Source of the DNA: a virus
Taxonomy: Duplodnaviria; Caudoviricetes
Length of the DNA: 55,699 nt
Direction: 5' to 3' (one strand)
IMG/VR virus record: IMGVR_UViG_3300045303_000132
Location: 1-55,699 of that record
Numbering within the stretch: position 1 is the first letter of the stretch; each line of letters begins with the position of its first letter. The position numbers and the translations under genes were made by a program. The notes below the pieces were generated by a model. The model saw nothing but the letters and a program-made list of their open reading frames with translations, did no database searches and was not told the origin of the DNA. Shown piece after piece: positions 19,819 to 55,277 of this stretch.

Positions 19819-19842
19819 TCTTCCGTTTGAGAGGAGAGCAGT

Positions 19843-19956
19843 ATGAGCGACCAACATGATTGTCTGGAAGATGGTTGCCAGTACGACGGCGCAGACAGCA
19901 ACCGGGCGTCGATGTTCTGCATCTGGTGCGGGCTGACCAGAGAAGACCTGGAGTGA
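19843..19956 (+). CDS. Micro Zn-binding protein (37 aa)
   Basis: RBS gaggag; HDC...C...CIWC; GTGA overlap with the polymerase. Confidence 0.55.
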   Translation: MSDQHDCLEDGCQYDGADSNRASMFCIWCGLTREDLE

Positions 19957-21989: not shown

Positions 21990-21991
21990 CG

Positions 21992-22858
21992 ATGAGCGAT
22001 GAGACAATGGACCTCTACCGAGGGATGGTGGTGGAGCGGCACAACATCTGGTGCGCCCGCCAGATGGGCGAGCCCCAGCCGTGGACTCACGACGTGGTGC
22101 TGGCGAACCGGAAGTTCACCAATATGTTCCGCGTCCTCGACCCCGGCTCGCAGTTCGTGTTCGACCTTGACAACGAGGACCCGGTGACCGTGATCGCCCG
22201 GCTGGTCTTCTACCGGATCACGAACCTGCCGTCTACGTGGTACGCGATGCGGGCCGCGCACGGACGCTACCCCACCGCCAATGACTTCACCCACTCGTCG
22301 GCATTCCTGTTCCAGATTCTCGACGCGCACCGGCTGAGTGGGAATCGCATCTTCAGCGGGGCGTACATCATCGTCCCTGAGCCCGGAACCGCGAACGACA
22401 AAGTGAGCGGGGCGCTACGCCTGACGGCCCTGTTCGTCAGGGAGAGGGCCGAGGCGTTCCTGGACGCCACCACTCAGGACGAGCGGTTCGACGTGCTGCG
22501 GTCCACCCCTGGTCTCGGGCCGTTCCTCTCGATGCAGATCCTCACCGATTGGGGCTACCTCCAGACCGCGGAGCCGGACCTGTCGTTCATCGTGGCTGGC
22601 CCCGGTGCTCGCCGTGGTGCCGCGCTGCTCTACCCGGCCAAGAAGCCGGAGGACGTGATCTACGACCTCGCCTTCGACTGGATGGATCATCCTTCCGTTA
22701 GGCTGGTCGGTCGCTCCCTCACGCTGATGGACGTGCAGAACACTCTCTGCGAGTTCAGCAAGTACGCGCGAGAACTCGTCGCCCCCCGCAAGAAGACGAC
22801 GTACCAGCCCTCGCACCCCGGCGCTCAGCCGGTCCCCGTTATCCCCCGATGGTGGTAG
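21992..22858 (+). CDS. 5-hydroxymethyl-dU DNA kinase family protein (aGPT-Pplase1 / HMUDK helical domain)
   Basis: ERHNIW..R..G.PQPWT.D.VL...KFTN.FR..D, FSGAY, HhH-like PGLGPFLSMQI..D, GPGARRG, DVQNTLCEFSKY. Confidence 0.82.
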   Translation: MSDETMDLYRGMVVERHNIWCARQMGEPQPWTHDVVLANRKFTNMFRVLDPGSQFVFDLDNEDPVTVIARLVFYRITNLPSTWYAMRAAHGRYPTANDFTHSSAFLFQILDAHRLSGNRIFSGAYIIVPEPGTANDKVSGALRLTALFVRERAEAFLDATTQDERFDVLRSTPGLGPFLSMQILTDWGYLQTAEPDLSFIVAGPGARRGAALLYPAKKPEDVIYDLAFDWMDHPSVRLVGRSLTLMDVQNTLCEFSKYARELVAPRKKTTYQPSHPGAQPVPVIPRWW

Positions 22859-22894
22859 TGGAACACCCGACCACCACGAGCCTAGCCTGCCTGC

Positions 22895-22920
22895 TAGGCT
22901 AGGGGTACGGCAACGCCCCT
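22895..22920 (+). promoter_or_regulatory. Promoter/leader repeat copy 8 (degenerate)
   Basis: gcctgctaggctaggggtacggcaacgcccct then RBS gaaagg. Confidence 0.6.
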
Positions 22921-22935
22921 AGAGAAAGGTGACAC

Positions 22936-24459: not shown

Positions 24460-24776
24460 TGACGACCTACACCGCACTTCTTGCGCTGCCGGACGGGCTC
24501 ATGGCGGCAGATGCTGCCGCCCGTATCCCCGGAGCAGTGGTCGTCGACAACGTCCAGGCTGGTGTGTGGGTGTCTTGGAGCACCGAGGCCGACACCGACA
24601 ACGAGGGGATCCAGGCCCTCCAGGAAATCCGGCTTCGGGCTGAGATGTTCGCCGAGTTCGCGGATGGAGGCGTCACCCCGTCCGGTGCCGATCCCTCCTT
24701 GTTCCAGACTACCCCGTTCATCATCCTGCGAGGTGCTGCATTCATCGTCCACACGGAAGAGGTGCTATGTCTGTGA
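24459..24776 (+). CDS. Hypothetical protein in the modification cluster
   Basis: TGATG coupling. Confidence 0.65.
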   Translation: MTTYTALLALPDGLMAADAAARIPGAVVVDNVQAGVWVSWSTEADTDNEGIQALQEIRLRAEMFAEFADGGVTPSGADPSLFQTTPFIILRGAAFIVHTEEVLCL

Positions 24777-25015
24777 CGATCAACCACGGCACGAGAAGCG
24801 GGTACTACGCTCATCGCCGCCTGAGCGAGCCGCCGTGCGACGACTGTCGTGCGGCGATCAACGAGTACATCCGGGAGTACCGGAGCAGGACTGGCCTATC
24901 CCGCAATCGGGCTGGTGAGAAGATCCGGCGGAAGGCGTTGGCCGCGCTGCGGGACCGACACCGCGAGGAGTACGAGGATCTCCTGGTCGAGTTCCGTGCG
25001 GAAGAGATGATCTGA
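24767..25015 (+). CDS. Small Zn-binding DNA-binding-like protein
   Basis: HGTRSGY..HRR..E.PC..CR motif common in actinophages. Confidence 0.7.
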   Translation: MSVTINHGTRSGYYAHRRLSEPPCDDCRAAINEYIREYRSRTGLSRNRAGEKIRRKALAALRDRHREEYEDLLVEFRAEEMI

Positions 25016-25209
25016 TGGACCATCCGACGTTTGTCACCATCGAATACTGGCACCAGATGACTGCTTCCTGGGAGACCGGGCACGCCGGGATCAACCTGAT
25101 GAACCCTGCCACCTACGTCCAGAAGTTGGCGAAGCGCGGGGTCATCGCACGAGCCGTCGAGAAGGACACCGGGGTGACCGTGTACGGCGAAGGTGCAGAC
25201 CTCCTCTGA
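25015..25209 (+). CDS. Hypothetical protein
   Basis: TGATG coupling on both sides. Confidence 0.65.
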   Translation: MDHPTFVTIEYWHQMTASWETGHAGINLMNPATYVQKLAKRGVIARAVEKDTGVTVYGEGADLL

Positions 25210-25907
25210 TGGACGTGGTCTACGTGTGCCGAAACGGGGACAACCCCGAACTCCGGTACTCCCTCCGCACGCTGGCGAACGTGGATCACGACCGCGTGTG
25301 GATCTTCGGCGGCGCGCCCACCTGGATCGACTTCACCGCCGTCACTCACCAGAAGCGAGCGCAGTGTGGGACCCCGTACTCCTCCACCCGGAGCCATATC
25401 GCAGCCGCGTGCAACACCCCAGAGGTGAGCGACCCCTTCGTACTCTGGAACGACGACTTCTTCGCGATGCACCCGGTCGGCACCGTGCCGCTCTACCACC
25501 GTGGCCCGCTGGAGCCCCTACTCGAGAAGTACGTCAAGATCAGGACGCCGTGGGGGAAGGGGTTACTCCAGACAGCCGCGATGATGGGAGGGCGCGGACT
25601 GCTGGCGGGCGCGATGTGCTACGACGTTCACCTCCCACTGGTTGTCTGCAAGGCAGAGATGCGGGAGGCGCTGCGGTTGGCGAAGAACGCTTCGACCGAC
25701 GCCATTCACGTGAGGACGTTGTACGGGGCCTTGTCAGGGCTGGACGGAGTGGAGCACCATGACCCGAAGTTGATGCGTCGAAGCGACCCGTTCCCGCGTG
25801 GTGCGTGGCTGTCTTCCAGCGACGACACATTCCGTTCAGCCGTGGAGCCGGTGCTGAGATACCTGTTCCCGGACGCATCACTCTACGAGAAAGCGATGTT
25901 CAGGTGA
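25209..25907 (+). CDS. Stealth-like sugar-1-phosphate transferase (GT-A fold)
   Basis: MDVVY (CR1-like), ELRYSLR...VWIFGGAPTW, FVLWNDDFF (CR2-like), H.P (CR3-like), SSSD (CR4-like). Confidence 0.75.
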   Translation: MDVVYVCRNGDNPELRYSLRTLANVDHDRVWIFGGAPTWIDFTAVTHQKRAQCGTPYSSTRSHIAAACNTPEVSDPFVLWNDDFFAMHPVGTVPLYHRGPLEPLLEKYVKIRTPWGKGLLQTAAMMGGRGLLAGAMCYDVHLPLVVCKAEMREALRLAKNASTDAIHVRTLYGALSGLDGVEHHDPKLMRRSDPFPRGAWLSSSDDTFRSAVEPVLRYLFPDASLYEKAMFR

Positions 25908-26581
25908 CCCTCGGGATCCTACTCCCCACGCGGGGACGACCAGATAACCTCCACCGCTTCCTCTCGGCCACCGAGGACACTGCCGACGACTGGCACTTGT
26001 ACCTTCGGCTCGATTACGACGACCCGCAGGCACCCGCGTACGACGAAGTCATCGGGCGGGCGTACCGGCGCATCACGGTCCGCCACGGTCCCCGAGTCGG
26101 TTTCGGGGCGTCCCTGAACGAACTCGCCTTCCGGGCCGAGCGGGACGGGGTGTCGCACCTCGGCATGTTCGGCGACGACGTAGTGCCGGAGACCCCGCAT
26201 TGGGACACCCGGCTGGTCGAGGCGCTGGGCGACGACCTCGGCATCGCCTACGGTGACGACGGCCTACGGCACAAGCATGGACGCGACCTGCCGACGCACT
26301 ACGTCACCCACGCGGAGGTCTACCGCCGCCTCGGCTACCTGTCGCCACCCACGATCCGTCACCTGTATCTGGACAACGTGGCGAGGGACGTGGGTCTGTA
26401 TCTGAAGAACTTCGTGTTCGTGCCGGTCAGCATCAGGCACCTCCACCCGTGGGCCGAGGGCGAGCAGATCCACGACTCCACCTACGCCGAGGGCGGGCGC
26501 AACGCCGACCTCCGCCTCGCCGACCGGAGGGCGTACATCCAATGGACGCAGGACCGTGAGTGGAAGCGCCGCCTTCGGTGA
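25904..26581 (+). CDS. Glycosyltransferase family 2 (GT-A)
   Basis: ILLPTRGRP, D.DD, MFGDDVVP, H.Y.D, H.HP. Confidence 0.8.
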   Translation: MTLGILLPTRGRPDNLHRFLSATEDTADDWHLYLRLDYDDPQAPAYDEVIGRAYRRITVRHGPRVGFGASLNELAFRAERDGVSHLGMFGDDVVPETPHWDTRLVEALGDDLGIAYGDDGLRHKHGRDLPTHYVTHAEVYRRLGYLSPPTIRHLYLDNVARDVGLYLKNFVFVPVSIRHLHPWAEGEQIHDSTYAEGGRNADLRLADRRAYIQWTQDREWKRRLR

Positions 26582-27549
26582 CACTGACCGCGTTCCTCCA
26601 CGGCTACCCGCCGCTCTGGTCCATGGGCGGAGAGATGTCTACGCACCGCACCCTCCGCGCCGTGCCGGGTTCCATTGTTTACACGAAGACGCTCGAGGAC
26701 TATCAGTTCGACGGGGTCTCGGTGAAGCCAGCGACGGGTACGTCCTTCCAGTGCATCAAGGACGACGCAAGATCCGCCGGGGCGACTGTCCTGTTCGGGC
26801 ACTCGACATTGTCCATGGACACTATCCGGGCTGCGAGGCAGTTGAAACTCCCGTCCATCCTCGCCGTCCACGCGCCACGCCGATTCGGGGCAGACCTGCA
26901 TCGGGCGAAGTCGTCAGCCACCGTGCGTCTCTACAACACGGAGGCCGCTCGGAAGGACTGGCACGACCCGAGGGGGTGGCTGCTGCACCCGCCTGTCGGT
27001 GGTCCGTCCGACTTGCCGGAGGGGCCGGGCAACGCGATAACGCTGACCTCGTCTCTCGTGAACAAGGGGGCGGCTCGCGTGCTCAAACTGGCGACACGGC
27101 GCTGGGACCAGAGGTTCATCATCGTGGAATCGCCTGCGCATCCCACCCACGGCGACCCTGACTTCTGGCACGATGCGCAGAAACTCGACAACGTGGAGAT
27201 CTGGCCGCGCCTGCACCCCGACGAGATGGGCAAACTCTGGGCCGAGACTCGCGTGCTGCTGGTCCCATCGCGGTACGAGACCTACGGCATGGCCGCGATG
27301 GAGGCGGCGTGGCACCATATCCCCTCGGTACACGTGGACACCCCCCACGTCCGCGAGGGAATCGGCACGGCGGCGTGCCTCATCAAGACGACGCATCTCG
27401 AGGAACTGGACCACGCGCTCACCGAGGTAGAACTAGAGCACGACGTCTGGGCAGACCGGGCCTTCCACCGCGCTGAAAGCCTCGCGCAGCGAGAATCAGA
27501 TGAGTTGGCCCTGTTTGCGGCGGGTGTGGCCGGGCTCACACCCCTGTAG
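26578..27549 (+). CDS. Glycosyltransferase, GT-B fold (GT4-like)
   Basis: HGYPP...GGE, NKG, VLLVPSRYETYGMAAMEAA (EX7E). Confidence 0.85.
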   Translation: MTLTAFLHGYPPLWSMGGEMSTHRTLRAVPGSIVYTKTLEDYQFDGVSVKPATGTSFQCIKDDARSAGATVLFGHSTLSMDTIRAARQLKLPSILAVHAPRRFGADLHRAKSSATVRLYNTEAARKDWHDPRGWLLHPPVGGPSDLPEGPGNAITLTSSLVNKGAARVLKLATRRWDQRFIIVESPAHPTHGDPDFWHDAQKLDNVEIWPRLHPDEMGKLWAETRVLLVPSRYETYGMAAMEAAWHHIPSVHVDTPHVREGIGTAACLIKTTHLEELDHALTEVELEHDVWADRAFHRAESLAQRESDELALFAAGVAGLTPL

Positions 27550-35917: not shown

Positions 35918-37708
35918 CTAGTCGTCCAGCCTCTCCCACCAGTTGAGCGCCACGAGGACGAGGGTGTCGTCGCACTTGGGATCTGGGTGGGCGTAGAAGA
36001 CGTCAGTCGGGCTGTAGTCGCCGAAGATGATGGGCCAGTTCACCTTGCCGAAGATCAGCCGGTACTTCAAGCCCGAGTCAGCGAGCGCCCATGAGTTGAG
36101 CCTCCCCTCGTGGCCATTGAGGACGAGACCCTCGACGCTGCCCGAGCGGGTGGTCCGCATCAGCCTGCGACGCACCGGCTCGACCACGAGATTGCCGTGG
36201 ACCGGAGTGTGCAGGATGGACCCTTCCTCCGTGATCTGTGCCACGACGGGTCGATCGTTGTTTCCGAGAATCTCGATCTTGTTGCCTGTCCTCGGGTTCA
36301 CCATCCACACGCTCGCGGTGGTGAAGGTGTCCTTGACCTGAGGACCCATCACTGAGGTTACGCCGTCGATCCGGGTCAGCACGTTCCAGGTGTGCTCCAC
36401 GCGGAGGTCCGCGGTGATGTCCCGGATGCTGAAGTTCGTGCCAATGAAGAAGTCAGTGGCAGGAGCCCACTTACGAGGAACACCGTCAGCATCCCAGATT
36501 GTGACCGCCACCCCGTCACGCCAGAGCGAGATCTCGTCGGGAGTGCCGAGAACACGGGTGCCGGTGATGACGGGGAAGGGGTCGCTGAACGTGACGGCGA
36601 GATTCGTGACCGCCGGACCGTTGCCAGTGTGAACGGTGTCGAACTCCTTCTCCACGTACGACCAGATAGGCGCTTCTTCTGCCGCCACACGCGGATGGAT
36701 GGAGTCGGTCGTCCGCAGAACCACCTTGCCGTGACCACCTGGCACGGGCACACCCTTGGACGGGAACCAGTCGCGAGTTGCAGAGTCCACATCCCACGTC
36801 GACTTCGCGATGGTATCGGAACCCTGATGGAGTTCGGCCTGCCACGACACCTGATCGGCCACTGTCCAGGTCACGGTGGGGCTGCCGTCGTCAGTGACCG
36901 AGGGCGGGTTGACGATCACCGGCTGAACGATGGGCCGGTAGGAGTACGAAACCCACGGGCTCCAAGGACTCGTGCCGCCCCCTCCAGTGGTCATGACACG
37001 CCAGTAGGTGGATGCCCCCGACGCCAGCACCGGAGCGCCCGCAGCGGGCACGTAGCGACCTGAGGGAGCCGGTATCGAGCCGGTGTCGAAGGTGATGCCG
37101 CCGACCGTGCCGTCCGAGGAATACTGGATCTGCTGGTGATCCATATCCTCATCGCCCGTATAGGACAAGATGGGAGTAGGCACCGAGACCGCCCCGCCCT
37201 GCGGAGAGAGGCCGACAGGCTGTGAGTTCGGCGTGTAGTAGTCCACGACCATGACCGGCTTGTTGAGAGCCGCCGACGAGCCCCTGAGGGCGATCGCCGT
37301 GGTGAGGGTGGTGTCGAGCGCCAGACCGAGACGACTCCGGGTGTTGGCCCACGCCGTGACGGAGAAGGAGTAGGGCTGGTCCACGACCGGGGCGGTGATC
37401 GAGGTCGTGGTGATGACAGCACCGAGTGGAGGTCGGTTAGACCACGTGACCGAAGACTTCCACGCCGCCGTGATCGGGAAGATGCGAATGGGCACCGCAC
37501 CCGTCTTGGCCGCAGCCGTCCAGAACTGGACGTTCGCCGCCGTGACCACGGCCCCCTCGGGGATCTGGTCAATGGGGACACGTATCAGAACGCGCTGAAC
37601 AGCGTTGCTCGTGTTCTGGATGGTCAAGGTGCCCGGCGACCCGATAGGGTACGCGGGTCGGTTCTGCTTGATCAGGTAGGTCGTCAGCGGGATGATGATC
37701 TGTGGCAT
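35918..37708 (-). CDS. Minor tail protein (distal-tail-like)
   Basis: Immediately after the tape measure; beta-rich, W.SSVTWSNRP module. Confidence 0.72.
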   Translation of the reverse strand: MPQIIIPLTTYLIKQNRPAYPIGSPGTLTIQNTSNAVQRVLIRVPIDQIPEGAVVTAANVQFWTAAAKTGAVPIRIFPITAAWKSSVTWSNRPPLGAVITTTSITAPVVDQPYSFSVTAWANTRSRLGLALDTTLTTAIALRGSSAALNKPVMVVDYYTPNSQPVGLSPQGGAVSVPTPILSYTGDEDMDHQQIQYSSDGTVGGITFDTGSIPAPSGRYVPAAGAPVLASGASTYWRVMTTGGGGTSPWSPWVSYSYRPIVQPVIVNPPSVTDDGSPTVTWTVADQVSWQAELHQGSDTIAKSTWDVDSATRDWFPSKGVPVPGGHGKVVLRTTDSIHPRVAAEEAPIWSYVEKEFDTVHTGNGPAVTNLAVTFSDPFPVITGTRVLGTPDEISLWRDGVAVTIWDADGVPRKWAPATDFFIGTNFSIRDITADLRVEHTWNVLTRIDGVTSVMGPQVKDTFTTASVWMVNPRTGNKIEILGNNDRPVVAQITEEGSILHTPVHGNLVVEPVRRRLMRTTRSGSVEGLVLNGHEGRLNSWALADSGLKYRLIFGKVNWPIIFGDYSPTDVFYAHPDPKCDDTLVLVALNWWERLDD

Positions 37709-46913: not shown

Positions 46914-49190
46914 CTACTCCTTGGGAGAATCTTCTGGAACCGGGACGTCCGTGAGCAGGTCTTCGGCAAGCATGGCGACCGCCTTCTCGATCCGCTTCAG
47001 GCTCGCCATGACCTCATCCATGCTAGGCGATTTCTCATCTGGCTTGTCACCCTCAGACGGGAACTCGAAGTGCTCGCTGTGCTCACCACACTCAGCGCAG
47101 AAGCCGCCCTCCGGGTTGAGGACGTGGACGTGCTCCGGCCCGGTCAGGATCTGTGCGTCGCCGCCCGCGCTGGCCGCGACGGGCCATGCGGGAGTGGGGA
47201 CAAGGTGGAGGCCGACCAGCGTGCGACCACGCCCAGCGGGCCACAGTTCCACGCTCGGGGCGGACGCGGCGGCACGGAGCAGGGCGTCCCGGTCCACACC
47301 GGGCATCACAACGCCGCTGATGGCGAGGCCGAAGGGGGTCTCCCACGCCCGGACCATCGCGAAGATGGTGTTCGCGTCGTCACGATGACGACCCACCTCC
47401 AGCGCACCCACGCCCTGACGAGCGAGTGCCGGGTCGAGGTGCCGCCCACCAAGGGTGAGCGCACCCGGCTGGAACGTAGTGCCGTCGGAGAGCGTGATCA
47501 ACTGCCCCGTGTGGAAGCCCCGGTGCCGAGAGTCCACGTCGCCGGGGTACTGGAAGCACGCGCCCATGTCGCTTCGGTGACACACGCCCTTCGGTGCGGC
47601 GATGCCGTAGATGCGACGAAGGCCGTTGGCGTCCTCATCGCCGACGGAGAGCGGCACCAACTTCTTCGGCTTGAAGTCGGCGAAGTACTCCGCCGGGAGA
47701 GACGTCGAGCCAGCCGCAGCCGTCACCGCCTCGACGTCCTCCCCGGTGAGTGCCTCTGGGCGGACGGCGGTCTCCATGCCGTCGACCCGCTCGAGGGCGC
47801 TGATGGACCCGACCACCACGCCGTCGTGATCGTTGTTGTCCGGGTCCCAGATGATTGGGATGGGGAGGAGGTCGTCGTCCCAGGTGAGGCTGCCGTACTT
47901 CAGCGTCCGGACGTCGCCGGTGTAGACGCCCTCGAACGTCACCGGGCCAGACACGCCGTAGCCGTCCTCGTTGAGGGCGAGGCGGGCGTTGCTGAACGCC
48001 GCCGTGTCGACGATCGCGACGTGGCGCGGGCGGATCTCGGCGTTCTCGAAGATGTCATTCGCCTCCGCCATCTTCGCCGCCATCGCCTCCTCATCGTCGT
48101 CCGGGCTGGGCTCCAGCGCGGCCAACTTCTCGGCGACCTCGGGCGTGAGGTCGTGTTTGATGGACACCGCCACCGCACCCTCACGGAGGAGTTCCTGCAC
48201 ACGGGCCACCAGAGCCTGAGTGCGAGGATCCTCAGACAGAGACAGGGTGCCCGTGCCGATGATGCCTGCGGTCTTCTTCTCGTCAGCCACGGGGGGCTCC
48301 TCTGTCTCTTCGGTGGTCCAGCCGTCCGGAAGATCGACATCACACTTGAGGGCGCTCCTCCGCTTCTTGATGTGAGCCTTCGCCTTGGCCGGGTCACTCG
48401 CCCGACCGATGGCCTGAATCGCGTTCTTCAGGTCAGCGCAGTCGCCGATCGGGAACGACCCGTCCGGAAGCGCCCTGCCGTCCTTCGCCATCGCCTTCCG
48501 GGCCTCGGGGGAGTAGTCCTTGAAGTCCACGCCATCGCCTTCCGTGTCGTTGCGACGTTCCTTGCGCTCGGGGCGCGTGCCGTCCGGACTGAACGGGCAG
48601 TCGGGCCAGTCGTCGTACTTCTCGACGATCCGAACGTAGATCGTACAGATCTTCCGCTTGATCGCGTCTTTCTCGGCCTTGGACGCGCCCGTCATCTTGT
48701 CGACGCCATGCCCTCCGGACACGGCCGACATTCCACGAGGGACGATATGCAATCCGGCGTCGGCTACGTCGGTGAAGGGGAGTTTGTACGCCTGTCGGGT
48801 GTGGAGGTCCTTCGACGTGTCGATGAAAAAGAACGCCTGACGGAGTTTGTCCGGGTCAAGCGTACCGTCTTCCTCCGTGGCCCACTCGAACACACGATTC
48901 GTTGCGGCCTCGCCGTCCCACGGCTCGTCACGCCCGCCAATGGGGAGTTCGACACTCCCTCCGATCTTGAACTCGGTGGCATCCATCTCCAACCACTCCA
49001 TCAGAGCCTTGAGACTGCGAGGTCCGGGGAGCCTGCCCTGCTTCAGACGGCTGAAAGCGGCCTGATGGATCCCTACTTCCTCTGCAACCTCGCTCCAAGA
49101 GAGCGGAATGCCCGATCCTCGGGTCACACGGGCGTCCTCGAGGGCTGCCAGTAGCGCATAGACGTCCATGGGACGCAGGGTAGGGCTCAA
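46914..49190 (-). CDS. Multidomain capsid maturation protease-like protein
   Basis: Between portal and capsid; N-terminal HTH, WDG...AYKLP.D module, R..MAK.G.ALPDGSFPI module, C-terminal protease-like region; start could be 49169. Confidence 0.65.
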   Translation of the reverse strand: MSPTLRPMDVYALLAALEDARVTRGSGIPLSWSEVAEEVGIHQAAFSRLKQGRLPGPRSLKALMEWLEMDATEFKIGGSVELPIGGRDEPWDGEAATNRVFEWATEEDGTLDPDKLRQAFFFIDTSKDLHTRQAYKLPFTDVADAGLHIVPRGMSAVSGGHGVDKMTGASKAEKDAIKRKICTIYVRIVEKYDDWPDCPFSPDGTRPERKERRNDTEGDGVDFKDYSPEARKAMAKDGRALPDGSFPIGDCADLKNAIQAIGRASDPAKAKAHIKKRRSALKCDVDLPDGWTTEETEEPPVADEKKTAGIIGTGTLSLSEDPRTQALVARVQELLREGAVAVSIKHDLTPEVAEKLAALEPSPDDDEEAMAAKMAEANDIFENAEIRPRHVAIVDTAAFSNARLALNEDGYGVSGPVTFEGVYTGDVRTLKYGSLTWDDDLLPIPIIWDPDNNDHDGVVVGSISALERVDGMETAVRPEALTGEDVEAVTAAAGSTSLPAEYFADFKPKKLVPLSVGDEDANGLRRIYGIAAPKGVCHRSDMGACFQYPGDVDSRHRGFHTGQLITLSDGTTFQPGALTLGGRHLDPALARQGVGALEVGRHRDDANTIFAMVRAWETPFGLAISGVVMPGVDRDALLRAAASAPSVELWPAGRGRTLVGLHLVPTPAWPVAASAGGDAQILTGPEHVHVLNPEGGFCAECGEHSEHFEFPSEGDKPDEKSPSMDEVMASLKRIEKAVAMLAEDLLTDVPVPEDSPKE

Positions 49191-50881
49191 TCAGTGGAGT
49201 TTGCAAGCCCTTGCAGCAGATTTGCAAGATCTTCGTCCTGCAAAGCGACCGGATCGACGCTGTCCAGCGTTGCCAGCACATGCTCGGTCAGCCCGTCGAC
49301 GAGGTTGTCCCCAGCGCAGGACCGTGGACCCAAGAACAGGAGGCTGTCGGACACCACCGAGGCGGCGTCGATCCCCGCGCTCTCGAGCGCCTGAAGTCCC
49401 AGATGCGCTGGCACCGCGTCATTGGACAGGGAGGTCGGCAGCACGTCCCTCAGAGACGAGTGCGTACGGGCCTTGGCTCCCAGCCGGTCTCTCGCTCGGA
49501 ACGTGGCGACATCGATCTTGCCGCGCCACTCCGCGAGGACGGTGGGGTCGATCGACTTCTGGTCAGCGGGGGCACCGCTGGGGTCTTCTCGGTCGGAGCG
49601 TGCGGCCCGCTGGCGGGGGGTCTCGGTGGTCGGACTGTGCGCGCCTTCGCCCTGGTTCTCGGGCTTGTCCACTCCAATGGTCTGGCGGCGTGCCCGCTCC
49701 TCGTCCGACGGTGCTGCCCACGCCGGGATTCCGAGCACCTCGCGGAAGTAGTCGCCGCTCACCTCGCCTCGGTCGTAGGCGTCCTTGACGTCCTGGACCG
49801 TCGACCTCTTCGCCAGCAGCAGCGTCGGGTCCGGCTTCACCAGGATCTCCACGTCGGGGAACAGAGTGTTCAGAACGTCGGTCGCGACCTGCGCGACGAT
49901 GTTGGCCGGAGGCTCGATGTGCGCCCGGTACGAGTTCTCCTCGACCTGGAAGGCGGTGGCCCGCGACTGCGCCGACAGCCCCAGCAGGATCTCCGGCGGG
50001 ATGGGCAGGCCGTACGCCAGCCGGTGGATCATGGCCTCCATGCGACCCTCGACGCGGGCGTCGTAAGGGAAGTCAGGCACGACCCAGGACAGCCCGCCCA
50101 TGCCCCGGCCACTCGCCATCGGCTCGACGAGTTCCTTCGCGCCGCGGAGATGCACCGGCCCCACGTCAGTCGGGTCGGTCATCTTGGCCCGGAGCGACTT
50201 GTCCCACTCCTCCCAGAAGTCCCCGCCCCCGGCGAAGTTCAGGCCGTCGGCAGAACCGAGAATGCCGCGCATCCCCACTCGGTTCGCGGACTGAGCACGG
50301 CTCAAGCGGCCAAGCCAGTCCATGTCGGAGAGGATGGACAGGACCCCGAACAGGGGCGCGTCCGGCTGCGACGGGTCGATCGGTGACGGCCAGAGCCCGC
50401 GGAGAACGTGCTCTGCCTCCTTGAACCAGGAGTTCTGGTCGGGGTGGATCACGGACAGGACGTGCCAGCATTCGTCCTTGTAGACGTAGAACAACTCCCC
50501 CGCGACGTACAGGTTCGTCGTGACGAGCCGGACCATGCCGACCGTCCAGCCGATGGATTTCAGCACCTCAGCAGACGCCTTGCCGTGCGGGTTCTTCTTC
50601 TCGCCCTGACCACCGGACACGACGACGGTGCCGTCGGCGAGTTCCAGTTCCCAATCCGTGCTCCCGTCGACGAAGACGTCCCACTGCATCCGGGACATCT
50701 GGTCCGCGGCCCACCCCACGATGTAGCGCACTTCGCCGACGGCCTCGGTCTGCGGGATGGCCCCGTAGATGCTGGTCTTCGGCGTGGCAGCCGCAGCCGC
50801 CGCCGCTCCGTAGGCTCCGTAGTATCCCCACGCCTGGATCTGTTGAGTCCGGACAAGAGATGTCGGCGGTGCATAGGCCAT
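49187..50881 (-). CDS. Portal protein
   Basis: VGEVRY.VGW, RLAYGL.IPPEILLG, HIEP motifs; 564 aa; position. Confidence 0.85.
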   Translation of the reverse strand: MAYAPPTSLVRTQQIQAWGYYGAYGAAAAAAATPKTSIYGAIPQTEAVGEVRYIVGWAADQMSRMQWDVFVDGSTDWELELADGTVVVSGGQGEKKNPHGKASAEVLKSIGWTVGMVRLVTTNLYVAGELFYVYKDECWHVLSVIHPDQNSWFKEAEHVLRGLWPSPIDPSQPDAPLFGVLSILSDMDWLGRLSRAQSANRVGMRGILGSADGLNFAGGGDFWEEWDKSLRAKMTDPTDVGPVHLRGAKELVEPMASGRGMGGLSWVVPDFPYDARVEGRMEAMIHRLAYGLPIPPEILLGLSAQSRATAFQVEENSYRAHIEPPANIVAQVATDVLNTLFPDVEILVKPDPTLLLAKRSTVQDVKDAYDRGEVSGDYFREVLGIPAWAAPSDEERARRQTIGVDKPENQGEGAHSPTTETPRQRAARSDREDPSGAPADQKSIDPTVLAEWRGKIDVATFRARDRLGAKARTHSSLRDVLPTSLSNDAVPAHLGLQALESAGIDAASVVSDSLLFLGPRSCAGDNLVDGLTEHVLATLDSVDPVALQDEDLANLLQGLANSTD

Positions 50882-51484: not shown

Positions 51485-52843
51485 TCAGAACCGGCCCATT
51501 CTCACAGAACTGAGGGCCGAGGGAAGCCCGACAGGCCCCGGTGCCGGAACCATACTGCCACGGACGGTCGCCGTGTGCCGCGACCGCAGATACCACATCG
51601 CCCAGACGAGCGCGTCCACCCGGTCGGGAGACGCTCCGACCCCCGGCACCCACTCGCACATCTGGTCCCAGAGCGGCGTGCTCTGCGTCACCATGTGGAC
51701 GATCTGCTCCTCGACCTCCCAGAGCAGGGCGATCGGCTCGGCTCGCGTCTTCTTCGACTTCGTCGCGTTCACCGTGTGAATCGGGAGCGCGTGACCCGCG
51801 GAGTTGATCACCTCCTTCACCATCTGCCCGCCCTGATTGATCTCCGCGACCACGATCCCGTCGTACGAGTCGGCAGCGGACTTCACCCGCGCCGCCCAGA
51901 CGTGCGGCGACGCCTCTTCCACGCTCCGGTCGTCCAGGACATACATGTGACCTCCGGCGTCTTGCCCCACGACGACGATGCCGCACGTCCCGTTTCCGGT
52001 GGGCGGGTCAACACCCACCACGACCCGATCGCAGATCGCGGCCACGGCCGACCCCGGTCCGTTGACCCGACTCCTCTCGAGGTCGTTCGCCTTCCAGAGC
52101 GCCCCCTCGACGTCCTCGATGACTTCACCCAGAACCTCCTGTCGGTACAGCCGAGTTCCGTAGTAGAGCGTGTTCAGGGTGTGCAGCCAGTCCAGCGGGA
52201 TGTGCTTGTTGTCCATCGACGTGCCACGTCGGACAACAACGTTCGGGTCAGCCTCCCACTTCTTGATCAGATGGTGGGGCCGGGGCGTACTCGAAATCAG
52301 CCATCGCCGGGAACCACGTCGTCTACTCAGCGATGCCTGCTCGAACGCCTTCTCGGCACAGGGATTCGCGAAGAACTCCTCGAACACGTCGAAGTCTACG
52401 TTCGTCAGAGCACGAAGCCTGTCCACGTCCTTCTCGGTGGGTGTCCCAACGATCCACACCCGAGACCCGTTCGGGTAGCGCACACAGGCTCCTCCGGGGG
52501 CACTCGGGAGCCACTTCGCCTGATTCTTCGACAGAGTCAGCAGTCCGTTCGGCCCGTCGACCGCAGCCGCGATTCCGTCACCGAGTGTCGGAGCAATGAC
52601 CCGCGCTCGGACGTTGCTGGTCTCGGACAAGGTGAGGTGGAGCTCCCACATCGCTGCGAAGGACTTGCCCGCTCCTCGTCCGGCCATCATGGCGAAGCCG
52701 AGGGCGTTGGGGTTCTCTCCCGGATCGCGGGCAGAGCCAGGGGAGACTCTCCACGGGGGGATTTGGTGGTGCTGGAGAATCACTCTGCCCGCTAGGCGCT
52801 CTCTCAGTCCGTCCGCGAGGGCGGTGGACGAAAGGGAGGCCAT
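51485..52843 (-). CDS. terL: Terminase large subunit
   Basis: AGRGAGKS Walker A, DVFEE Walker B-like, STPR, YRQEVLGE, VVVGVDP, SPDRVDALVWA nuclease motifs; start uncertain. Confidence 0.93.
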   Translation of the reverse strand: MASLSSTALADGLRERLAGRVILQHHQIPPWRVSPGSARDPGENPNALGFAMMAGRGAGKSFAAMWELHLTLSETSNVRARVIAPTLGDGIAAAVDGPNGLLTLSKNQAKWLPSAPGGACVRYPNGSRVWIVGTPTEKDVDRLRALTNVDFDVFEEFFANPCAEKAFEQASLSRRRGSRRWLISSTPRPHHLIKKWEADPNVVVRRGTSMDNKHIPLDWLHTLNTLYYGTRLYRQEVLGEVIEDVEGALWKANDLERSRVNGPGSAVAAICDRVVVGVDPPTGNGTCGIVVVGQDAGGHMYVLDDRSVEEASPHVWAARVKSAADSYDGIVVAEINQGGQMVKEVINSAGHALPIHTVNATKSKKTRAEPIALLWEVEEQIVHMVTQSTPLWDQMCEWVPGVGASPDRVDALVWAMWYLRSRHTATVRGSMVPAPGPVGLPSALSSVRMGRF

Positions 52844-52904
52844 GCGGGCAGTGTAGGTCCATGTGTGGGTCGGAGATAGTGGGACGGATGATCGGATATT
52901 CGGT

Positions 52905-52965
52905 CCATGCGCGTAGATCGGCCATTCGCGTGAAGAAAAGCGGATCCATGCGCGTGACGAAAAGC
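52905..52965. repeat. Short direct repeats upstream of terL
   Basis: ccatgcgcgt (52905), ccattcgcgtgaagaaaagc (52922), ccatgcgcgtgacgaaaagc (52946). Confidence 0.6.
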
Positions 52966-53049
52966 CGGTGAGGTCTACCACGGTGATTCTCCGCGCGCAA
53001 ATAAGATGCCGCGCGGCGCCATTTTCCTTGGGTTTGGCCGGGCGCCGGG

Positions 53050-53083
53050 TAGGCTAGCCATAGGCAAGCCAACGGGGCCTGCC
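53050..53083 (+). promoter_or_regulatory. Promoter/leader repeat copy 9, recoded to be TC/GA-free
   Basis: ttgggt-16 nt-taggctagccataggcaagccaacggggcctgcc; RBS tagggg. Confidence 0.75.
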
Positions 53084-53104
53084 ACTAGTAGTTAGGGGCC
53101 ACCA

Positions 53105-53521
53105 ATGGCCAGCACACCCAAGCCGCGCGCACCGCGCGCACCCAAGGCACCCGCGTACGCGGTTGCCAGCCTGCCCACCACGGGCACCCAATACCGGCTT
53201 GCCAGCGGGGGCACGGGCACCGCGCAGCAAACCGCCTACCAGCAGGCGGTGCGCACCCTGCACGCATGGGGTGGTGGCCCCACCACCGCCAACGGCCCGC
53301 TTGTGTTTGCGCTTGTGCACCTTGGGTGGTGCGCAGGTGGCGGTGCCCGTGCCTTGTGTAAGGCCAGCAGCAGCGCAGCCTGCCAACACGGCACGCCGCA
53401 CCTGCAGCATGGCAAGCCTGCCGCGCCACAGGTGTGCGCCACGCTGGCAGCGCTGGCAGCCGCCGGGGCACCCGCTGCCGCGCTGGCAACCGTGTGGGCC
53501 ACCTACACGGGCAAGGCATAG
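53105..53521 (+). CDS. Asp/Glu/Ile-free early protein, paralog of 271..690
   Basis: Promoter repeat and RBS upstream, hairpins downstream, clear homology to the 271..690 protein. Confidence 0.85.
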   Translation: MASTPKPRAPRAPKAPAYAVASLPTTGTQYRLASGGTGTAQQTAYQQAVRTLHAWGGGPTTANGPLVFALVHLGWCAGGGARALCKASSSAACQHGTPHLQHGKPAAPQVCATLAALAAAGAPAAALATVWATYTGKA

Positions 53522-53540
53522 CCCGGCAGGTGCAACAACC

Positions 53541-53669
53541 GGCCCGGCCCGCCCCCACGGCGGGCCGGGCTACCCGCCTAGCACGCCAGCTAGGCGCCCG
53601 GCCCGGCCCGCCCCCCCACGGCGGGCCGGGCCACCCCCGGCCCGGCCCGCCCCCACGGCGGGCCGGGCC
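53541..53669 (+). terminator. Three tandem GC-rich hairpins
   Basis: ggcccggcccgccccc(cc)acggcgggccggg at about 53541, 53600 and 53639. Confidence 0.6.
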
Positions 53670-53844
53670 GGATCTGCGCGCCCGACGGACGCCCCGCGAC
53701 TCTCCGAGACCGCGCCGGAGGCGCGACTCTCCGAGACGCGGCCGGACGGCCCCGACTCTCCGAGACGCGGCCCGACGGCCCCGACTCTCGGGGAGCCCGC
53801 CCACTCTGCCGAGTCCGGCCCTTGGGTGCGACCAGCCCACCGGG

Positions 53845-53878
53845 TAGGCTAGCCGTAGGCAGCCCACCGGGGGTCGCC
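53845..53878 (+). promoter_or_regulatory. Promoter/leader repeat copy 10
   Basis: ttgggt-17 nt-taggctagccgtaggcagcccaccgggggtcgcc. Confidence 0.78.
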
Positions 53879-53895
53879 ATCACGAAAGGCTCACC

Positions 53896-54045
53896 ATGAC
53901 AGACTGTGACTTCCCGCAAGACGTGGACGCCGCTGGGAACCTGACGCACGCCGAGTGCGCCTGCCCGACGCCGGGGGCCGGGCCGTGCCCCTGCGAGGTG
54001 GAGAACGAGGTGTCCTGGCGCGCCAGCGCGCACCCGCTGTCGTAA
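53896..54045 (+). CDS. Small Cys-rich protein (49 aa)
   Basis: RBS gaaagg; MTDCDFPQ...ECACP..GPCPCE. Confidence 0.6.
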   Translation: MTDCDFPQDVDAAGNLTHAECACPTPGAGPCPCEVENEVSWRASAHPLS

Positions 54046-55064: not shown

Positions 55065-55277
55065 GCCCGAGGCCCCCGGCAGGAGCGACAGCCCGCCGGT
55101 CTACGGCGGCGACTCTCCGAGAGGAGCCCGCGCCGCGACGAGCGCGCGCCGCGAAGAGCGGCGGGCCGCGACTCTCGGAGACCTCAGGGCGGGCCGGGTC
55201 TTCGCGCCGACGAGCGGCCCCTCCTCACCGCAGGGAGGAGCAACGCTCGTCGGGAGCGGCCCAGCCGCGGAGGTCGC

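What the first reader, a model, noticed from the sequence alone, without database searches (positions are those of the whole stretch)
53050..53104. Even the conserved promoter-leader repeat and RBS are recoded inside the TC/GA-free cassette
Seen: the closest copies read GGCAGCCCACCAGGGGTCGCC, and their RBSs contain GA (gaaagg, ggaagg, aaggag). This copy reads GGCAAGCCAACGGGGCCTGCC, which still folds (GGCA/TGCC, GCC/GGC) but has no TC, and its RBS is TAGGGG. Inference: the purge acts on non-coding DNA too, so it is not a protein-level composition effect. The compensatory changes also show the leader hairpin is functional.
Basis: partly seen in the sequence, partly recalled or inferred. Interest (0 to 1): 0.78.

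Follow-up and report, generated by a model that had tools for sequence, protein, structure and literature searches.

The report
Promoter-leader copy rewritten without TC/GA
In an uncultured soil phage that carries thymine-modification genes, one whole early gene unit (leader, ribosome site, protein code and end hairpins) has been rewritten to contain no TC or GA step, while close relatives keep the same gene in ordinary spelling, so something in the infected cell must act on exactly that two-letter step.

Summary
Observation confirmed. The window is a complete 55.7-kb phage record. It holds 12 copies of a promoter-like element (TAGGCTAGCC) followed by a leader hairpin. The copy at 53050 has 0 TC/GA between its -10 box and its start codon. 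Each of the other 11 copies has 3-7. This copy opens a 645-bp TC/GA-free tract (53026-53670; about 99 expected; next-longest gap 45).

New here:
- Relatives keep the tract through 131-182 substitutions, although one in three possible substitutions would create TC/GA.
- Other close relatives (one with a TerL 94% identical) carry the same gene in normal, TC/GA-rich spelling. This gives a direct before/after comparison: Ser TCN becomes AGY, CTC/GTC/ATC/TTC/GAN are lost, RBS GAAGGGG becomes TAGGGG, and the leader's GGGGTCGCC is rewritten in three different ways.
- 62 of 120 family proteins have two or fewer Asp+Glu.

The purge is therefore selected at the nucleic-acid level. The claim that compensatory changes prove a functional hairpin is weak, because only one base pair covaries. 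The -35 to -10 part also lacks TC/GA in unpurged relatives, so it is not recoded.

Best explanation (about 0.45): the phage's 5-hmdU DNA kinase pathway hypermodifies T in TC, and this unit stays unmodified. The scan has noted such cassettes before in other phage genomes.

The parts
53026..53670 (.). TC/GA-free tract: no TC and no GA on either strand, 645 bp
   Evidence: gap between TC/GA starts at 53025 and 53671; next-longest gap 45. TC 0 and GA 0 against 45 and 54 at genome frequency; the only dinucleotide class with an outlier gap.
53028..53033 (+). -35-like hexamer TTGGGT, 16 nt before the -10-like box; the last TC lies 2 nt upstream
   Evidence: sequence. Inference from spacing and from the same TTGGGT in copies 53845, 54169 and 54568. 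Not found by the consensus scan.
53050..53059 (+). Repeat core TAGGCTAGCC: -10-like TAGGCT overlapping the 8-bp palindrome GGCTAGCC; unchanged in this copy
   Evidence: 10 exact copies of TAGGCTAGCC in the window (0.93 matches with up to 1 mismatch expected); it holds no TC/GA in any copy.
53063..53083 (+). Recoded leader inverted repeat GGCAAGCCAACGGGGCCTGCC (consensus elsewhere GGCAGCCCACCAGGGGTCGCC)
   Evidence: alignment A5; pair counts; MFE hairpin GGCA.GCC/GGC.TGCC, -13.1 kcal/mol for the 46-nt leader.
53093..53098 (+). Ribosome-binding site TAGGGG, 6 nt before the ATG; other copies use GAAAGG, GGAAGG, GAAGGAG; unpurged orthologues use GAAGGGG
   Evidence: this window; orthologues.
53105..53521 (+). 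Gene for a 138-aa protein (P0001) with no Asp, Glu or Ile; Ser only as AGY; member of a family of at least 128 uncharacterised proteins
   Evidence: homologues; in-frame indels; dN/dS 0.01-0.58 among purged copies and the codon table; no Pfam or PHROG; confident helical model (pLDDT 89.9) without a clear structural match.
53523..53538 (+). Recoded copy (CCGGCAGGTGCAACAA) of a conserved post-stop motif that reads CCGGCAGGAGCGACAA in unpurged or partly purged relatives, and CCGGCAGGAGCGACAG at 55076 in this window
53541..53668 (+). Three GC-only hairpins (GGCCCGGCCCGCC...GGCGGGCCGGGC at 53541-53570, 53600-53631, 53639-53668) and a palindrome CGCCTAGC..GCTAGGCG (53575-53596); the likely end of the unit
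   Evidence: coordinates; fold -129 kcal/mol, z -8.7. They have no T-run, so the terminator scan does not list them. Relatives carry non-homologous but equally TC/GA-free hairpins here.
21992..22858 (+). 5-hmdU DNA kinase gene, the candidate writer of the mark that the tract avoids
   Evidence: PF18723 HMUDK_hel, E 1.7e-46, 159 bits (cut-off 25). The next gene, 22936-24459, matches the thymidylate synthase family at E 1.8e-25.

Best explanation
The element at 53050-53104 is a true member of the phage's 12-copy early promoter/leader family. Its transcribed part has been rewritten by selection so that it holds no TC and no GA, while it keeps the inverted repeat and a G-rich Shine-Dalgarno sequence. 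It is the head of a complete one-gene unit (leader, ORF, post-stop motif, terminal hairpins; 53026-53670) that is kept free of this one strand-symmetric dinucleotide at the level of the nucleic acid. The price is every Asp and Glu in the protein. That part is shown (confidence about 0.95).

Most likely cause (inferred, about 0.45): the phage replaces T by 5-hmdU, and its 5-hmdU DNA kinase pathway then hypermodifies the T of 5'-TC-3' on both strands. About 44% of all T in this genome lie in that context. A unit without TC on either strand stays free of the bulky adduct. The host RNA polymerase can then read it without hindrance, and modification-dependent host enzymes cannot touch it, from the moment the modified virion DNA enters the cell. 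The other early units carry TC in the leader hairpin and GA in the RBS.

Relatives that keep the same gene in normal spelling, and lineages that have regained acidic residues, show that the constraint is conditional and costly.
For: SHOWN.
(1) Zero TC/GA in 645 bp against about 99 expected, and only for this dinucleotide class.
(2) The tract is conserved in diverged relatives. L008/G001 has 605 bp. L007 has at least 549 bp and runs off the contig end. L100 has 588, L096 587, L107 671, L092 at least 477.
(3) 643 of 1935 possible single substitutions (33%) would create TC/GA, yet none of the 131 differences between the window and L008, or the 182 against L107, does so. A naive probability is 0.668^131 = 1e-23.
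(4) Two variant contigs in run X3, with 28 and 8 listed differences, create none.
(5) Unpurged orthologues exist. G003 4263-4664 holds 50 TC/GA in the gene, and its TerL is 93.8% identical to the window's TerL. L026-L028 are unpurged, as are 14 of 23 metagenome loci.
(6) Recoding: Ser TCN 24/24 in normal copies becomes AGY 34/34 in purged ones. Leu CTC drops from 18/21 to 0, Val GTC from 21/23 to 0, and Asp/Glu from 15 to 0.
(7) The protein is under purifying selection: L008 against L100 gives dN 0.003, dS 0.269.
(8) Non-coding parts are recoded in several different ways: three leader solutions, the RBS, and the post-stop hairpin stem GGAG/CTCC changed to GGT/ACC in L092.
(9) A second protein family at the same locus (P0004) also occurs purged (G002, G004, L114) and unpurged (L113; 46.5% identity, E 1e-17).

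FOR THE CAUSE.
- The genome encodes a 5-hmdU DNA kinase (E 1.7e-46) beside a thymidylate-synthase homologue and glycosyltransferases.
- No TGT/DpdA was found, which removes the known GA-specific deazaguanine route (the control rang in 14 of 14 genomes).
- Published work places kinase-dependent thymidine hypermodification at the dinucleotides TG and/or TC (PMC6449724 and PMC13458397, passages read) and calls it sequence-specific (PMC8989533 and PMC5889632, passages).
- Phosphorylation of 5hmU templates by 5-HMUDK cut E. coli RNAP transcription to 10% of the hmU template, and bulky major-groove groups abolished it (PMC6457204, passages).
- 41% of T are followed by C and 46% of A are preceded by G. 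This is in the range of 'up to half of thymidines' modified in known phages (PMC8989533 abstract).
- TG/CA is enriched in the tract (38 and 65 against 22 and 39 expected), so only TC is avoided.
Against: - No chemical or sequencing evidence exists that this phage modifies T, or that it does so at TC. The published contexts are mainly TG, and TC is the lesser site in SH-Ab 15599.
- I could not test the link between purge and kinase. G005 and G007 have the kinase, but their contigs lack the terminase-proximal region. G003 and the other unpurged contigs end before the kinase region.
- Seven further kinase-bearing phage records at least 99% complete by CheckV (G006, G010, G011, G012, G013, G015; kinase 41-61% identical where listed) and the cultured Microbacterium phage Golden have no complex dinucleotide-free tract and no homologue of the protein. 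The kinase alone therefore does not predict a cassette.
- Close relatives do well with the unpurged gene, so the purge is not needed by every phage of this group.
- The purge-specific differences start after the -10 box. The data therefore cannot separate a DNA-level reason from an RNA-level one by position.
- In L097 the -10-like box itself holds GA.
- The symmetric loss on the template and non-template strands is not what a pure block to RNAP elongation predicts.
Confidence: 0.5

Rival explanations
1. A host (or phage) enzyme that attacks DNA at TC, independent of the phage's own modification, selects against TC on both strands of a gene that must work first. Candidates are a TC-directed nuclease, a dsDNA or ssDNA cytosine deaminase, or a DarT-like thymidine ADP-ribosyltransferase acting on DNA opened by transcription. 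Phages that meet hosts without that enzyme keep or regain the normal spelling.
For: - The strand-symmetric loss fits a DNA target.
- The patchy distribution looks like an arms-race polymorphism: 62 of 120 family members have D+E of 2 or less, at least 5 and most parsimoniously 12 state changes occur on the tree, and the TerL of unpurged G003 is 94% identical to the window's.
- TC-context enzymes exist. This is recalled and comes from no call: DddA-type deaminases, T4 endonuclease IV at dT-dC, Thermus DarT at TNTC.
Against: - Such an enzyme would threaten the whole genome, yet the rest of the genome has TC/GA at 0.154 per base.
- No such host enzyme can be named for an unknown host.
- A longer recognition site (for example TNTC) would not demand loss of every TC and GA.
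- The phage's own kinase pathway offers a ready TC-context agent.
Confidence: 0.2
2. The constraint acts on the RNA. The transcript must lack UC and GA to survive one or more endoribonucleases (host abortive-infection or toxin RNases, or a phage RNase that clears host mRNA). This would resemble ACA-less mRNAs that resist MazF.
For: - The purge-specific differences begin just after the -10 box and run to the terminal hairpins or, in L097 and L095, only to the stop codon. That is the transcribed, translated part.
- In L097 the -10-like box holds GA and a TC follows it, while the leader and ORF are clean apart from one GA.
Against: - Two unrelated dinucleotides, UC and GA, would both have to be targets in the sense RNA. 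They are complements of each other, which one DNA-level specificity explains with a single rule.
- No RNase with these dinucleotide specificities is known to me (recalled; not searched).
- Exceptions in partly purged lineages show no consistent UC-only or GA-only pattern.
Confidence: 0.12
3. The tract is the footprint of a mutational process (editing or hypermutation at TC/GA), or an assembly or synthetic artefact, and is not maintained by selection.
For: A total absence of one dinucleotide could in principle come from exhaustive context-specific deamination.
Against: - C-to-T deamination at TC would enrich A+T, but the tract is G+C-richer than its surroundings (0.744 against about 0.65).
- TC and GA are replaced in many different ways, such as TCN to AGY, GTC to GTG, GAG to GCN, and three leader solutions.
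- Hairpins and the reading frame are kept, and dN/dS is below 1.
- The state persists through 131-182 substitutions.
- The sequence stands in contigs of four runs from four studies, one of which may be the source, and in many independent metagenome contigs.
Confidence: 0.03

Closest known systems
Dinucleotide-context thymidine hypermodification from 5-hmdU (5-hmdU DNA kinase pathway: Pseudomonas phage M6, Salmonella phage ViI, Delftia phage PhiW-14, Acinetobacter phage SH-Ab 15599)
   Same: The window encodes a 5-hmdU DNA kinase next to a thymidylate-synthase homologue. In the studied phages the mark sits at T followed by G or C and covers up to about half of all T (PMC6449724, PMC13458397, PMC8989533; passages read). 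About 44% of T here are in TC.
   Different: No modified base has been measured for this phage. The studied phages favour TG, whereas here TG/CA is enriched in the tract and only TC/GA is avoided. None of the passages I read describes a modification-free gene unit. The usual amino-acid:DNA transferase was not looked for; glycosyltransferase-like genes follow the kinase instead.
Restriction-site or short-motif avoidance in phage genomes (recalled; from no call)
   Same: Selection at the DNA level removes a short sequence by synonymous and non-coding changes.
   Different: Classical avoidance is genome-wide, concerns 4-6-bp sites and is partial. Here the target is a dinucleotide and the loss is total. 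It is confined to one 645-bp transcription unit and overrides protein sequence, with all Asp/Glu lost.
ACA-less mRNAs resistant to the MazF endoribonuclease (recalled; from no call)
   Same: A whole message written without a short motif so that a sequence-specific enzyme cannot act on it.
   Different: That case works at the RNA level and on one strand. Here the two missing dinucleotides are reverse complements of each other, which points to duplex DNA.
Repeated early promoter/leader elements of actinobacteriophages, such as start-associated sequences of Cluster K mycobacteriophages and the conserved early promoters of phiC31 (recalled; from no call)
   Same: There are many near-identical copies of a promoter-like box with a conserved transcribed segment directly upstream of the RBS of early genes, all in one orientation.
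   Different: The sequence is unrelated, as far as I can tell without those sequences in hand. The point here is that one copy has been recoded.
TC/GA-free gene cassettes noted earlier in this scan in other phage genomes (e1-5901741, e1-5974421, e1-5911611, e1-6037504, e1-5952764, e1-6240610; AI notes)
   Same: A whole small transcription unit without TC/GA, proteins without Asp/Glu, and genomes said to carry thymine-modification genes.
   Different: They are other genomes, and a word-based look-up with the L008 protein found no look-alike. I did not check those notes. New here are the unpurged orthologues in near relatives, the 62/58 split of the family, the repeated state changes and the recoded member of a repeat family.

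Membership tests
12-copy TAGGCTAGCC promoter/leader repeat of this phage | Core TAGGCTAGCC (or one mismatch) on the + strand, followed within about 60 nt by a G+C-rich inverted repeat, an RBS and a start codon | tested here: met
   The core is exact at 53050-53059, the inverted repeat lies at 53063-53083, the RBS at 53093-53098 and the ATG at 53105.
12-copy TAGGCTAGCC promoter/leader repeat of this phage | Type-A leader sequence GGCAGCCCACCAGGGGTCGCC | tested here: inconclusive
   It was not found at up to 3 mismatches. It aligns without gaps to the type-A leaders and differs at several positions (alignment A5). Orthologous cassette leaders in relatives bridge it to the consensus: GGCAGCCCAACGGGGGCCGCC in L008, and the consensus itself in unpurged L028 and L104.
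Housekeeping-sigma (sigma-70/HrdB-type) promoter | -10 hexamer of TANNNT type and a -35 hexamer starting TTG, 16-18 nt upstream | tested here: met
   TAGGCT with TTGGGT 16 nt upstream, read from the sequence. This is a weak match only.
Housekeeping-sigma (sigma-70/HrdB-type) promoter | Match to the E. coli consensus (at least 9 of 12) in the scanning tool | tested here: not met
   0 promoter-like sites in 52900-54000. The tool states that organisms with other promoter types are not covered.
Housekeeping-sigma (sigma-70/HrdB-type) promoter | A mapped transcription start | not testable with these tools
   No RNA run is listed for this DNA. Only contigs were available.
Structured 5' leader RNA hairpin | Predicted hairpin in every copy | tested here: met
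   85.5% of 207 cells pair in the named 8-pair helix, against 25.6-56.5% when the partner is slid by 1-3 columns. The hairpin is in the MFE structure for consensus copies 54181 and 53857, for the cassette copy and for L028, but not for L008.
Structured 5' leader RNA hairpin | Covariation (changes on both sides of pairs) and stability beyond composition | tested here: inconclusive
   1 of 8 pairs shows a change on both sides, in 2 of 26 distinct sequences. 75 of 500 shuffles reach that number of pairs and 0 of 500 reach that number of cells. The covariation score is reached by 33 of 500 shuffles. Folding z-scores run from -1.36 to +0.72.
Thymidine hypermodification system (5-hmdU DNA kinase pathway) | 5-hmdU DNA kinase | tested here: met
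   PF18723, E 1.7e-46, 159.3 bits against a cut-off of 25, for window 21992-22855.
Thymidine hypermodification system (5-hmdU DNA kinase pathway) | dUMP hydroxymethylase (a thymidylate-synthase homologue) that supplies 5-hmdUMP | tested here: inconclusive
   PF00303 at E 1.8e-25 for 22936-24456. I did not test whether it hydroxymethylates rather than methylates.
Thymidine hypermodification system (5-hmdU DNA kinase pathway) | A transferase that replaces the phosphate (aGPT-Pplase/AADT type) | not tested
   Only eight proteins of 15853-27546 were scanned. They gave GT1/GT4 and weak Stealth CR2 matches and no Pplase.
Thymidine hypermodification system (5-hmdU DNA kinase pathway) | Modified thymidine present in virion DNA, in the TC context | not testable with these tools
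   The phage is uncultured, and only assembled contigs of short-read soil metagenomes are available.
GA-motif 7-deazaguanine modification (DpdA type, e.g. Pseudomonas phage iggy) | A DpdA/TGT-family transglycosylase in the genome | tested here: not met
   PF01702 gives no match in the complete record at E up to 0.01, and the control rang in 14 of 14 genomes. I saw the iggy paper (PMC10484667) only in the search listing.

The most novel reading that the evidence does not exclude
TC-directed thymine hypermodification works as an epigenetic brake on host RNA polymerase. Fully marked virion DNA is read poorly, and the TC/GA-free unit is a modification-blind pioneer gene. It is the one message that can be made at full rate from incoming DNA, and its small helical, acid-free protein is needed to start the programme or to disarm a defence that senses modification. 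The conserved TC in the leader hairpin and the GA in the RBS of the other 11 early units would then be the switch that shuts early genes off once new DNA is marked. If so, the missing dinucleotide reads out the specificity of a DNA-modifying pathway from sequence alone. The frequent switches between purged and normal spelling would record an arms race.
Probability: 0.25. Interest if true: 0.92.

Novelty: new variant of a known kind. Interest (0 to 1): 0.8.

Why it matters
A complete gene unit that gives up a dinucleotide, and with it two amino acids, shows how strongly something in the infected cell reads the step TC/GA. The non-coding recoding examined here is the proof that the pressure is on the nucleic acid and not on the protein.

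Purged and normal versions of the same gene exist in near-identical phage backgrounds, so the question becomes directly testable. The same promoter, leader and protein are available with and without the motif.

If the link to the 5-hmdU kinase pathway holds, three things follow:
- Such tracts give a sequence-only readout of the context specificity of DNA hypermodification in uncultured phages.
- They mark genes that must work on marked DNA, which are candidate pioneer or anti-defence genes of unknown fold.
- They give a natural design rule for modification-free cassettes.

My searches of the paper library found no description of such units.

Tried and rejected
- Close relatives among deposited phages: none by DNA. 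None for the cassette protein by tblastn. TerL reaches at most 35% identity. The kinase has 32-37% relatives in Microbacterium, Brevibacterium, Glutamicibacter and Ralstonia phages.
- Microbacterium phage Golden was scanned whole. It has no dinucleotide-free unit. Its CA/TG-poor stretch at 24.1-24.3 kb is an acidic low-complexity tail. Morrigan was fetched only in part and not scanned.
- Function of the protein: no Pfam and no PHROG. The Foldseek PDB search gave no match at E 0.001 or better. In VIA-align wide the best Z was 6.2, among generic helical bundles. The ESM Atlas best score was 0.81, which is within its chance range.
- P0001 against P0004 by BLASTP: not significant (E 0.5). Whether the two cassette families are related is left open.
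- Purge against kinase: not testable.
- Other kinase phages: G006 has a 287-bp TC/GA-free stretch, but it is a simple tandem repeat (CTGGCCTGCCC-like) next to a TC/GA-saturated repeat. I rejected it as an analogue.
- Expression: no RNA holder is listed. Contigs cannot show starts or levels.
- The promoter and terminator consensus scan found nothing in 52900-54000.
- Literature: five searches found no paper on a dinucleotide-free gene unit. The Matilda preprint was irrelevant. Supplementary tables of PMC6449724 and PMC13458397 (restriction results per enzyme) were not open to me and may hold finer context data.
- Rows dropped: P0004 (the other family) and P0005 (near-copy of P0003) were left out of alignment A4 and of the tree. 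8 of the 128 hits were not listed and so were not used. D+E of 2 or less is a proxy for 'purged'. It held on the 23 loci with DNA, but a few Ser/Phe-rich proteins with low D+E (P0036, P0053, P0075, P0081) are probably misfiled.
- Duplicates: L086 is the same contig as G003, and L099 the same as L008.
Full report
WHAT THE WINDOW IS. The window is a whole IMG/VR virus record of 55,699 bp whose ends repeat 30 bp. It has 65% G+C. Structural genes lie on the minus strand, with portal at 49187-50881 and large terminase at 51485-52981. A long plus-strand early and replication arm holds an SNF2 helicase, a DUF2800 nuclease, an Enc34-type SSB, PolA, a 5-hmdU DNA kinase and a thymidylate-synthase homologue. 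No deposited phage is close: there are no DNA matches, and TerL reaches at most 35% identity. The DNA stands in contigs of four soil-metagenome runs from four studies, one of which may be the source.

The element TAGGCTAGCC occurs 12 times: at 214, 1922, 2935, 5461, 5962, 11881, 16831, 22895, 53050, 53845, 54169 and 54568. It has one mismatch at 16831 and two at 22895. All copies are on the plus strand, and each lies 40-65 nt before a start codon with an RBS.
- Six copies carry the leader GGCAGCCCACCAGGGGTCGCC with 0-3 mismatches. Five carry a second leader type (GGCAACGC...).
- The copy at 53050 reads GGCAAGCCAACGGGGCCTGCC and then ACTAGTAGTTAGGGGCCACCAATG.
- Between the -10-like box and the start codon it has no TC and no GA.
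- The copy opens a stretch of 645 bp (53026-53670) without a single TC or GA. About 99 are expected at the genome's rate, and the next-longest gap in the window is 45 bp.
- None of the other nine strand-symmetric dinucleotide classes shows anything comparable.
- Inside the tract the other T-dinucleotides are above expectation: TG 38 against 22, TT 12 against 6.6, TA 15 against 9.7. It is therefore TC that is avoided, not T.

ANATOMY OF THE UNIT. The parts, in order, are:
- a -35-like TTGGGT at 53028-53033; the last TC lies two bases before it;
- TAGGCT at 53050;
- the leader inverted repeat at 53063-53083;
- the RBS TAGGGG at 53093-53098;
- a 138-codon ORF at 53105-53521;
- a 16-nt motif, CCGGCAGGTGCAACAA, at 53523;
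- three G+C-only hairpins and a small palindrome, up to 53668.
The first GA after the tract is at 53671.

RELATIVES KEEP THE TRACT. The same gene lies next to the terminase gene in other uncultured phages, and the tract is kept:
- 605 bp in L008/G001;
- at least 549 bp, running to the contig end, in L007;
- 588 bp in L100, which is part of a 55,648-bp record;
- 587 bp in L096, 671 bp in L107 and at least 477 bp in L092.
These copies differ from the window at 125-182 of 400-494 aligned positions. One third of all possible single substitutions in the tract would make a TC or a GA (643 of 1935), yet none of the observed differences does. A naive probability for the 131 differences to L008 is 1e-23. 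Two variant contigs in run X3, with 28 and 8 listed differences, also make none. The ORF is a real gene. Its indels are in frame. dN/dS is 0.01 for L008 against L100 (dS 0.27) and 0.2-0.6 for more distant purged pairs.

THE SAME GENE IN ORDINARY SPELLING. This is the most useful new result. G003 is a 19.4-kb contig whose TerL is 93.8% identical to the window's, closer than the purged G001 at 86.6%.
- It encodes a homologue at 4263-4664 (58% identity over 84 residues by tblastn, E 6e-15) that holds 50 TC/GA and six Asp/Glu.
- Three more IMG/VR contigs (L026-L028) are also unpurged.
- Among the 23 metagenome loci, TC/GA counts inside the gene are: 0 in five, 1 in two, 3 in one, 19 in one, and 26-57 in the remaining fourteen.
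- A profile search found 128 family members, of which 120 were listed, none with a name or a Pfam domain. In the 120 rows used for the tree, 62 have at most two Asp+Glu and 58 have more.
- On a quick maximum-likelihood tree the two states need 12 changes by parsimony, and at least 5 are forced by well-supported branches. The tree has 133 columns and many unresolved forks, and low D+E is only a proxy for the purged state.
- A second small protein, P0004, occupies the same position in G002, G004 and L114. It sits in a nearly TC/GA-free unit (3-4 TC/GA per 400 bp) and has an unpurged counterpart in L113 (46.5% identity, E 1e-17).
- Whether P0004 is a distant relative of the first family is open (29% identity in alignment A2).

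WHAT WAS REWRITTEN.
In the coding part:
- Ser goes from TCN (24 of 24 in the two normal copies) to AGY (34 of 34 in five purged copies).
- Leu CTC (18 of 21) and Val GTC (21 of 23) disappear.
- Ile ATC is lost, and Phe TTC becomes TTT or Tyr.
- All 15 Asp/Glu codons are gone and are mostly replaced by Ala.
L094 (protein P0064) is an intermediate. It keeps the purged amino-acid make-up and has only 4 TC, but it has 19 GA, with Asp/Glu back at the sites where normal proteins have them (...EAGAPAE.LD...). This suggests that the acidic residues are wanted by the protein and return when the pressure lifts, so the purge has a cost.
In the non-coding part:
- Unpurged orthologous units have leaders with TC: GGCAGCCCACCAAGGGGTCGCC in L028 and L104, and GGGTCCGCTCC in G003. 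Their RBS is GAAGGGG or GAAAGG.
- Purged units show three different solutions for the 3' arm. GGGGCCTGCC, with a changed 5' arm GGCAAGCC, occurs in the window and in G004. GGGG(G)CCGCC occurs in L008, L101 and G002. GGGGGCAGCC occurs in L096.
- Purged units use the RBS forms TAGGGG, TTAGGGGG, TAAGGGG and TTAGGGG.
- G following G can still pair with the U of the anti-Shine-Dalgarno sequence by wobble. This is inferred from the standard 16S 3' end, which is recalled.
- The post-stop motif CCGGCAGGAGCGACAA becomes CCGGCAGGTGCAACAA. Where it forms a hairpin, the stem GGAG/CTCC of G003 becomes GGT/ACC in L092, a change on both arms.
- The terminal hairpins of the window and of L008 or L096 are not alignable, yet all of them are TC/GA-free.

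WHAT IS NOT SHOWN. The promoter core needed no rewriting: TAGGCTAGCC has no TC/GA in any copy. The -35 to -10 stretch is TC/GA-free in the unpurged G003 and L028 units too. The absence of TC/GA upstream of the start site is therefore not evidence that non-transcribed DNA is purged.
The leader hairpin is plausible but not proven:
- 85.5% of cells pair, against 26-57% for slid partners.
- Only one pair changes on both sides (C-G to G-C, in the two cassette leaders with GGCAAGCC).
- Six sequences change G-U to G-C.
- The covariation score is reached by 33 of 500 shuffles.
- Folding energies are not better than those of shuffled sequence.
The same pattern would be kept by a protein-binding inverted repeat in DNA. 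That the element is a promoter rests on its repetition, orientation, fixed distance to start codons and TANNNT-like box. The consensus scan found nothing, and no RNA data exist (see Tried and rejected).

CAUSE. The two missing dinucleotides are reverse complements, so a single rule explains both: no 5'-TC-3' on either strand of the duplex.
- The genome has a clear 5-hmdU DNA kinase (PF18723, E 1.7e-46), followed by a thymidylate-synthase homologue and glycosyltransferase-like genes. This follows the lead of note e1-6299583.
- In the phages where this pathway has been studied, 5-hmdU is converted 'in sequence-specific contexts' (PMC8989533 and PMC5889632, passages).
- Restriction mapping places the hypermodified T at TG and TC in M6, ViI and PhiW-14, with the kinase proposed as the source of specificity (PMC6449724, passages).
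- In Acinetobacter phage SH-Ab 15599 the mark sits mainly at TG and less at TC (PMC13458397, passages).
- Kinase treatment of 5hmU templates lowered transcription by E. coli RNA polymerase to 10% of the 5hmU template, and bulkier groups stopped it (PMC6457204, passages).
- The known GA-specific alternative, 7-deazaguanine insertion by a DpdA, is not supported, because the record has no TGT-family gene.
My best reading is therefore that T in TC is hypermodified in this phage group and that the unit is kept as unmarked DNA. Whether the benefit is free passage of RNA polymerase, escape from modification-dependent host enzymes, or both, is inference.

WEAK POINTS OF THAT READING.
- No measurement of the base exists.
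- TC-only specificity has no precedent in the passages I read.
- I could not test whether purged and normal units go with different kinases.
- Six other complete kinase-bearing phage records and the cultured Microbacterium phage Golden have neither the gene nor any complex dinucleotide-free tract.
- Close relatives live with the normal spelling.
- The rivals are a TC-directed host enzyme unrelated to the phage's own mark, and an RNA-level reason. They remain open and are given their own odds.

COMPARISON AND NOVELTY. The unit works like motif avoidance. But it is local, total, dinucleotide-sized and strong enough to remove two amino acids, and I found that in no paper. This scan has noted TC/GA-free cassettes before in at least six other phage genomes, and AG/CT-free and GA/GG/TC/CC-free ones in two more (AI notes, not checked by me). 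A sequence look-up found no look-alike of this protein among them. This window adds the recoded member of a repeat family, the natural purged and normal pairs in nearly the same phage background, the size and split of the protein family, and evidence of repeated switching and of a protein-level cost.

Noticed in passing
window 53675-53802 (also G003 5186-5290, G002 2636-2773, G005 47818-47950): The TC/GA-saturated CGACTCTCCGAGA-like repeat array next to the cassette is itself free of CA/TG for 104-137 bp (rate x gap 12-16). That is the mirror image of the cassette, which is TC/GA-free and CA/TG-rich. The array is present beside both purged and unpurged cassettes.
   Followed up: partly
window 53523-53538 and 55076-55091; G003 4684 and 5099; L097, L095, L094, G002, G004: A conserved 16-nt motif, CCGGCAGGAGCGACAA, follows the stop codons of the first early genes, and sometimes forms the 5' arm and loop of a hairpin. 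Its function is unknown. Inside the window's cassette it is recoded to CCGGCAGGTGCAACAA.
   Followed up: partly
G006 (IMGVR_UViG_3300025847_000001) 36037-37042: This complete relative has the kinase (61% identity) and a TerL 77% identical, but no cassette gene. Upstream of its terminase gene lie about 1 kb of tandem repeats. One block is saturated with TC/GA (GAGTCCTCGCCGGAG units). Another, of 287 bp, is made of CTGGCCTGCCC-like units with no TC/GA. The TerL match spans 2148 nt instead of about 1500, which suggests an insertion such as an intein or intron.
   Followed up: no
window, about 11-12 nt upstream of each TAGGCT box: Ten of the other promoter copies (22895 was not displayed) carry a conserved GA(C/T) 11-12 nt before the -10-like box, for example gcGACc and agGACa. 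The cassette promoters, purged and unpurged alike, have GGC or GCC there. It may be part of an operator or an extended promoter element that sets the cassette apart from the other early units.
   Followed up: partly
L092 460-520; G003 4730-4790; L095 430-480: Downstream of the cassette gene several relatives share a segment (…cagcacggTCcggggtgcGAccccccgg…) that looks like a structured small RNA or a tRNA-arm-like element. I did not examine it.
   Followed up: no
window 15338-15856: This ORF gives a weak Sigma-70 region 4 helix-turn-helix match (E 1.8e-4, below the cut-off). It could be a small terminase subunit or a phage transcription factor acting on the repeated promoters.
   Followed up: no
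P0002 model m47ec322d230a: The cassette protein family folds with high confidence (pLDDT 89.9, pTM 0.83) into a five-helix domain. It has no convincing match in the PDB (best Z 6.2) and no Pfam or PHROG family. Invariant residues include Gln25, Arg27, Tyr41, Trp51, His66, Trp69 and Arg76.
   Followed up: partly
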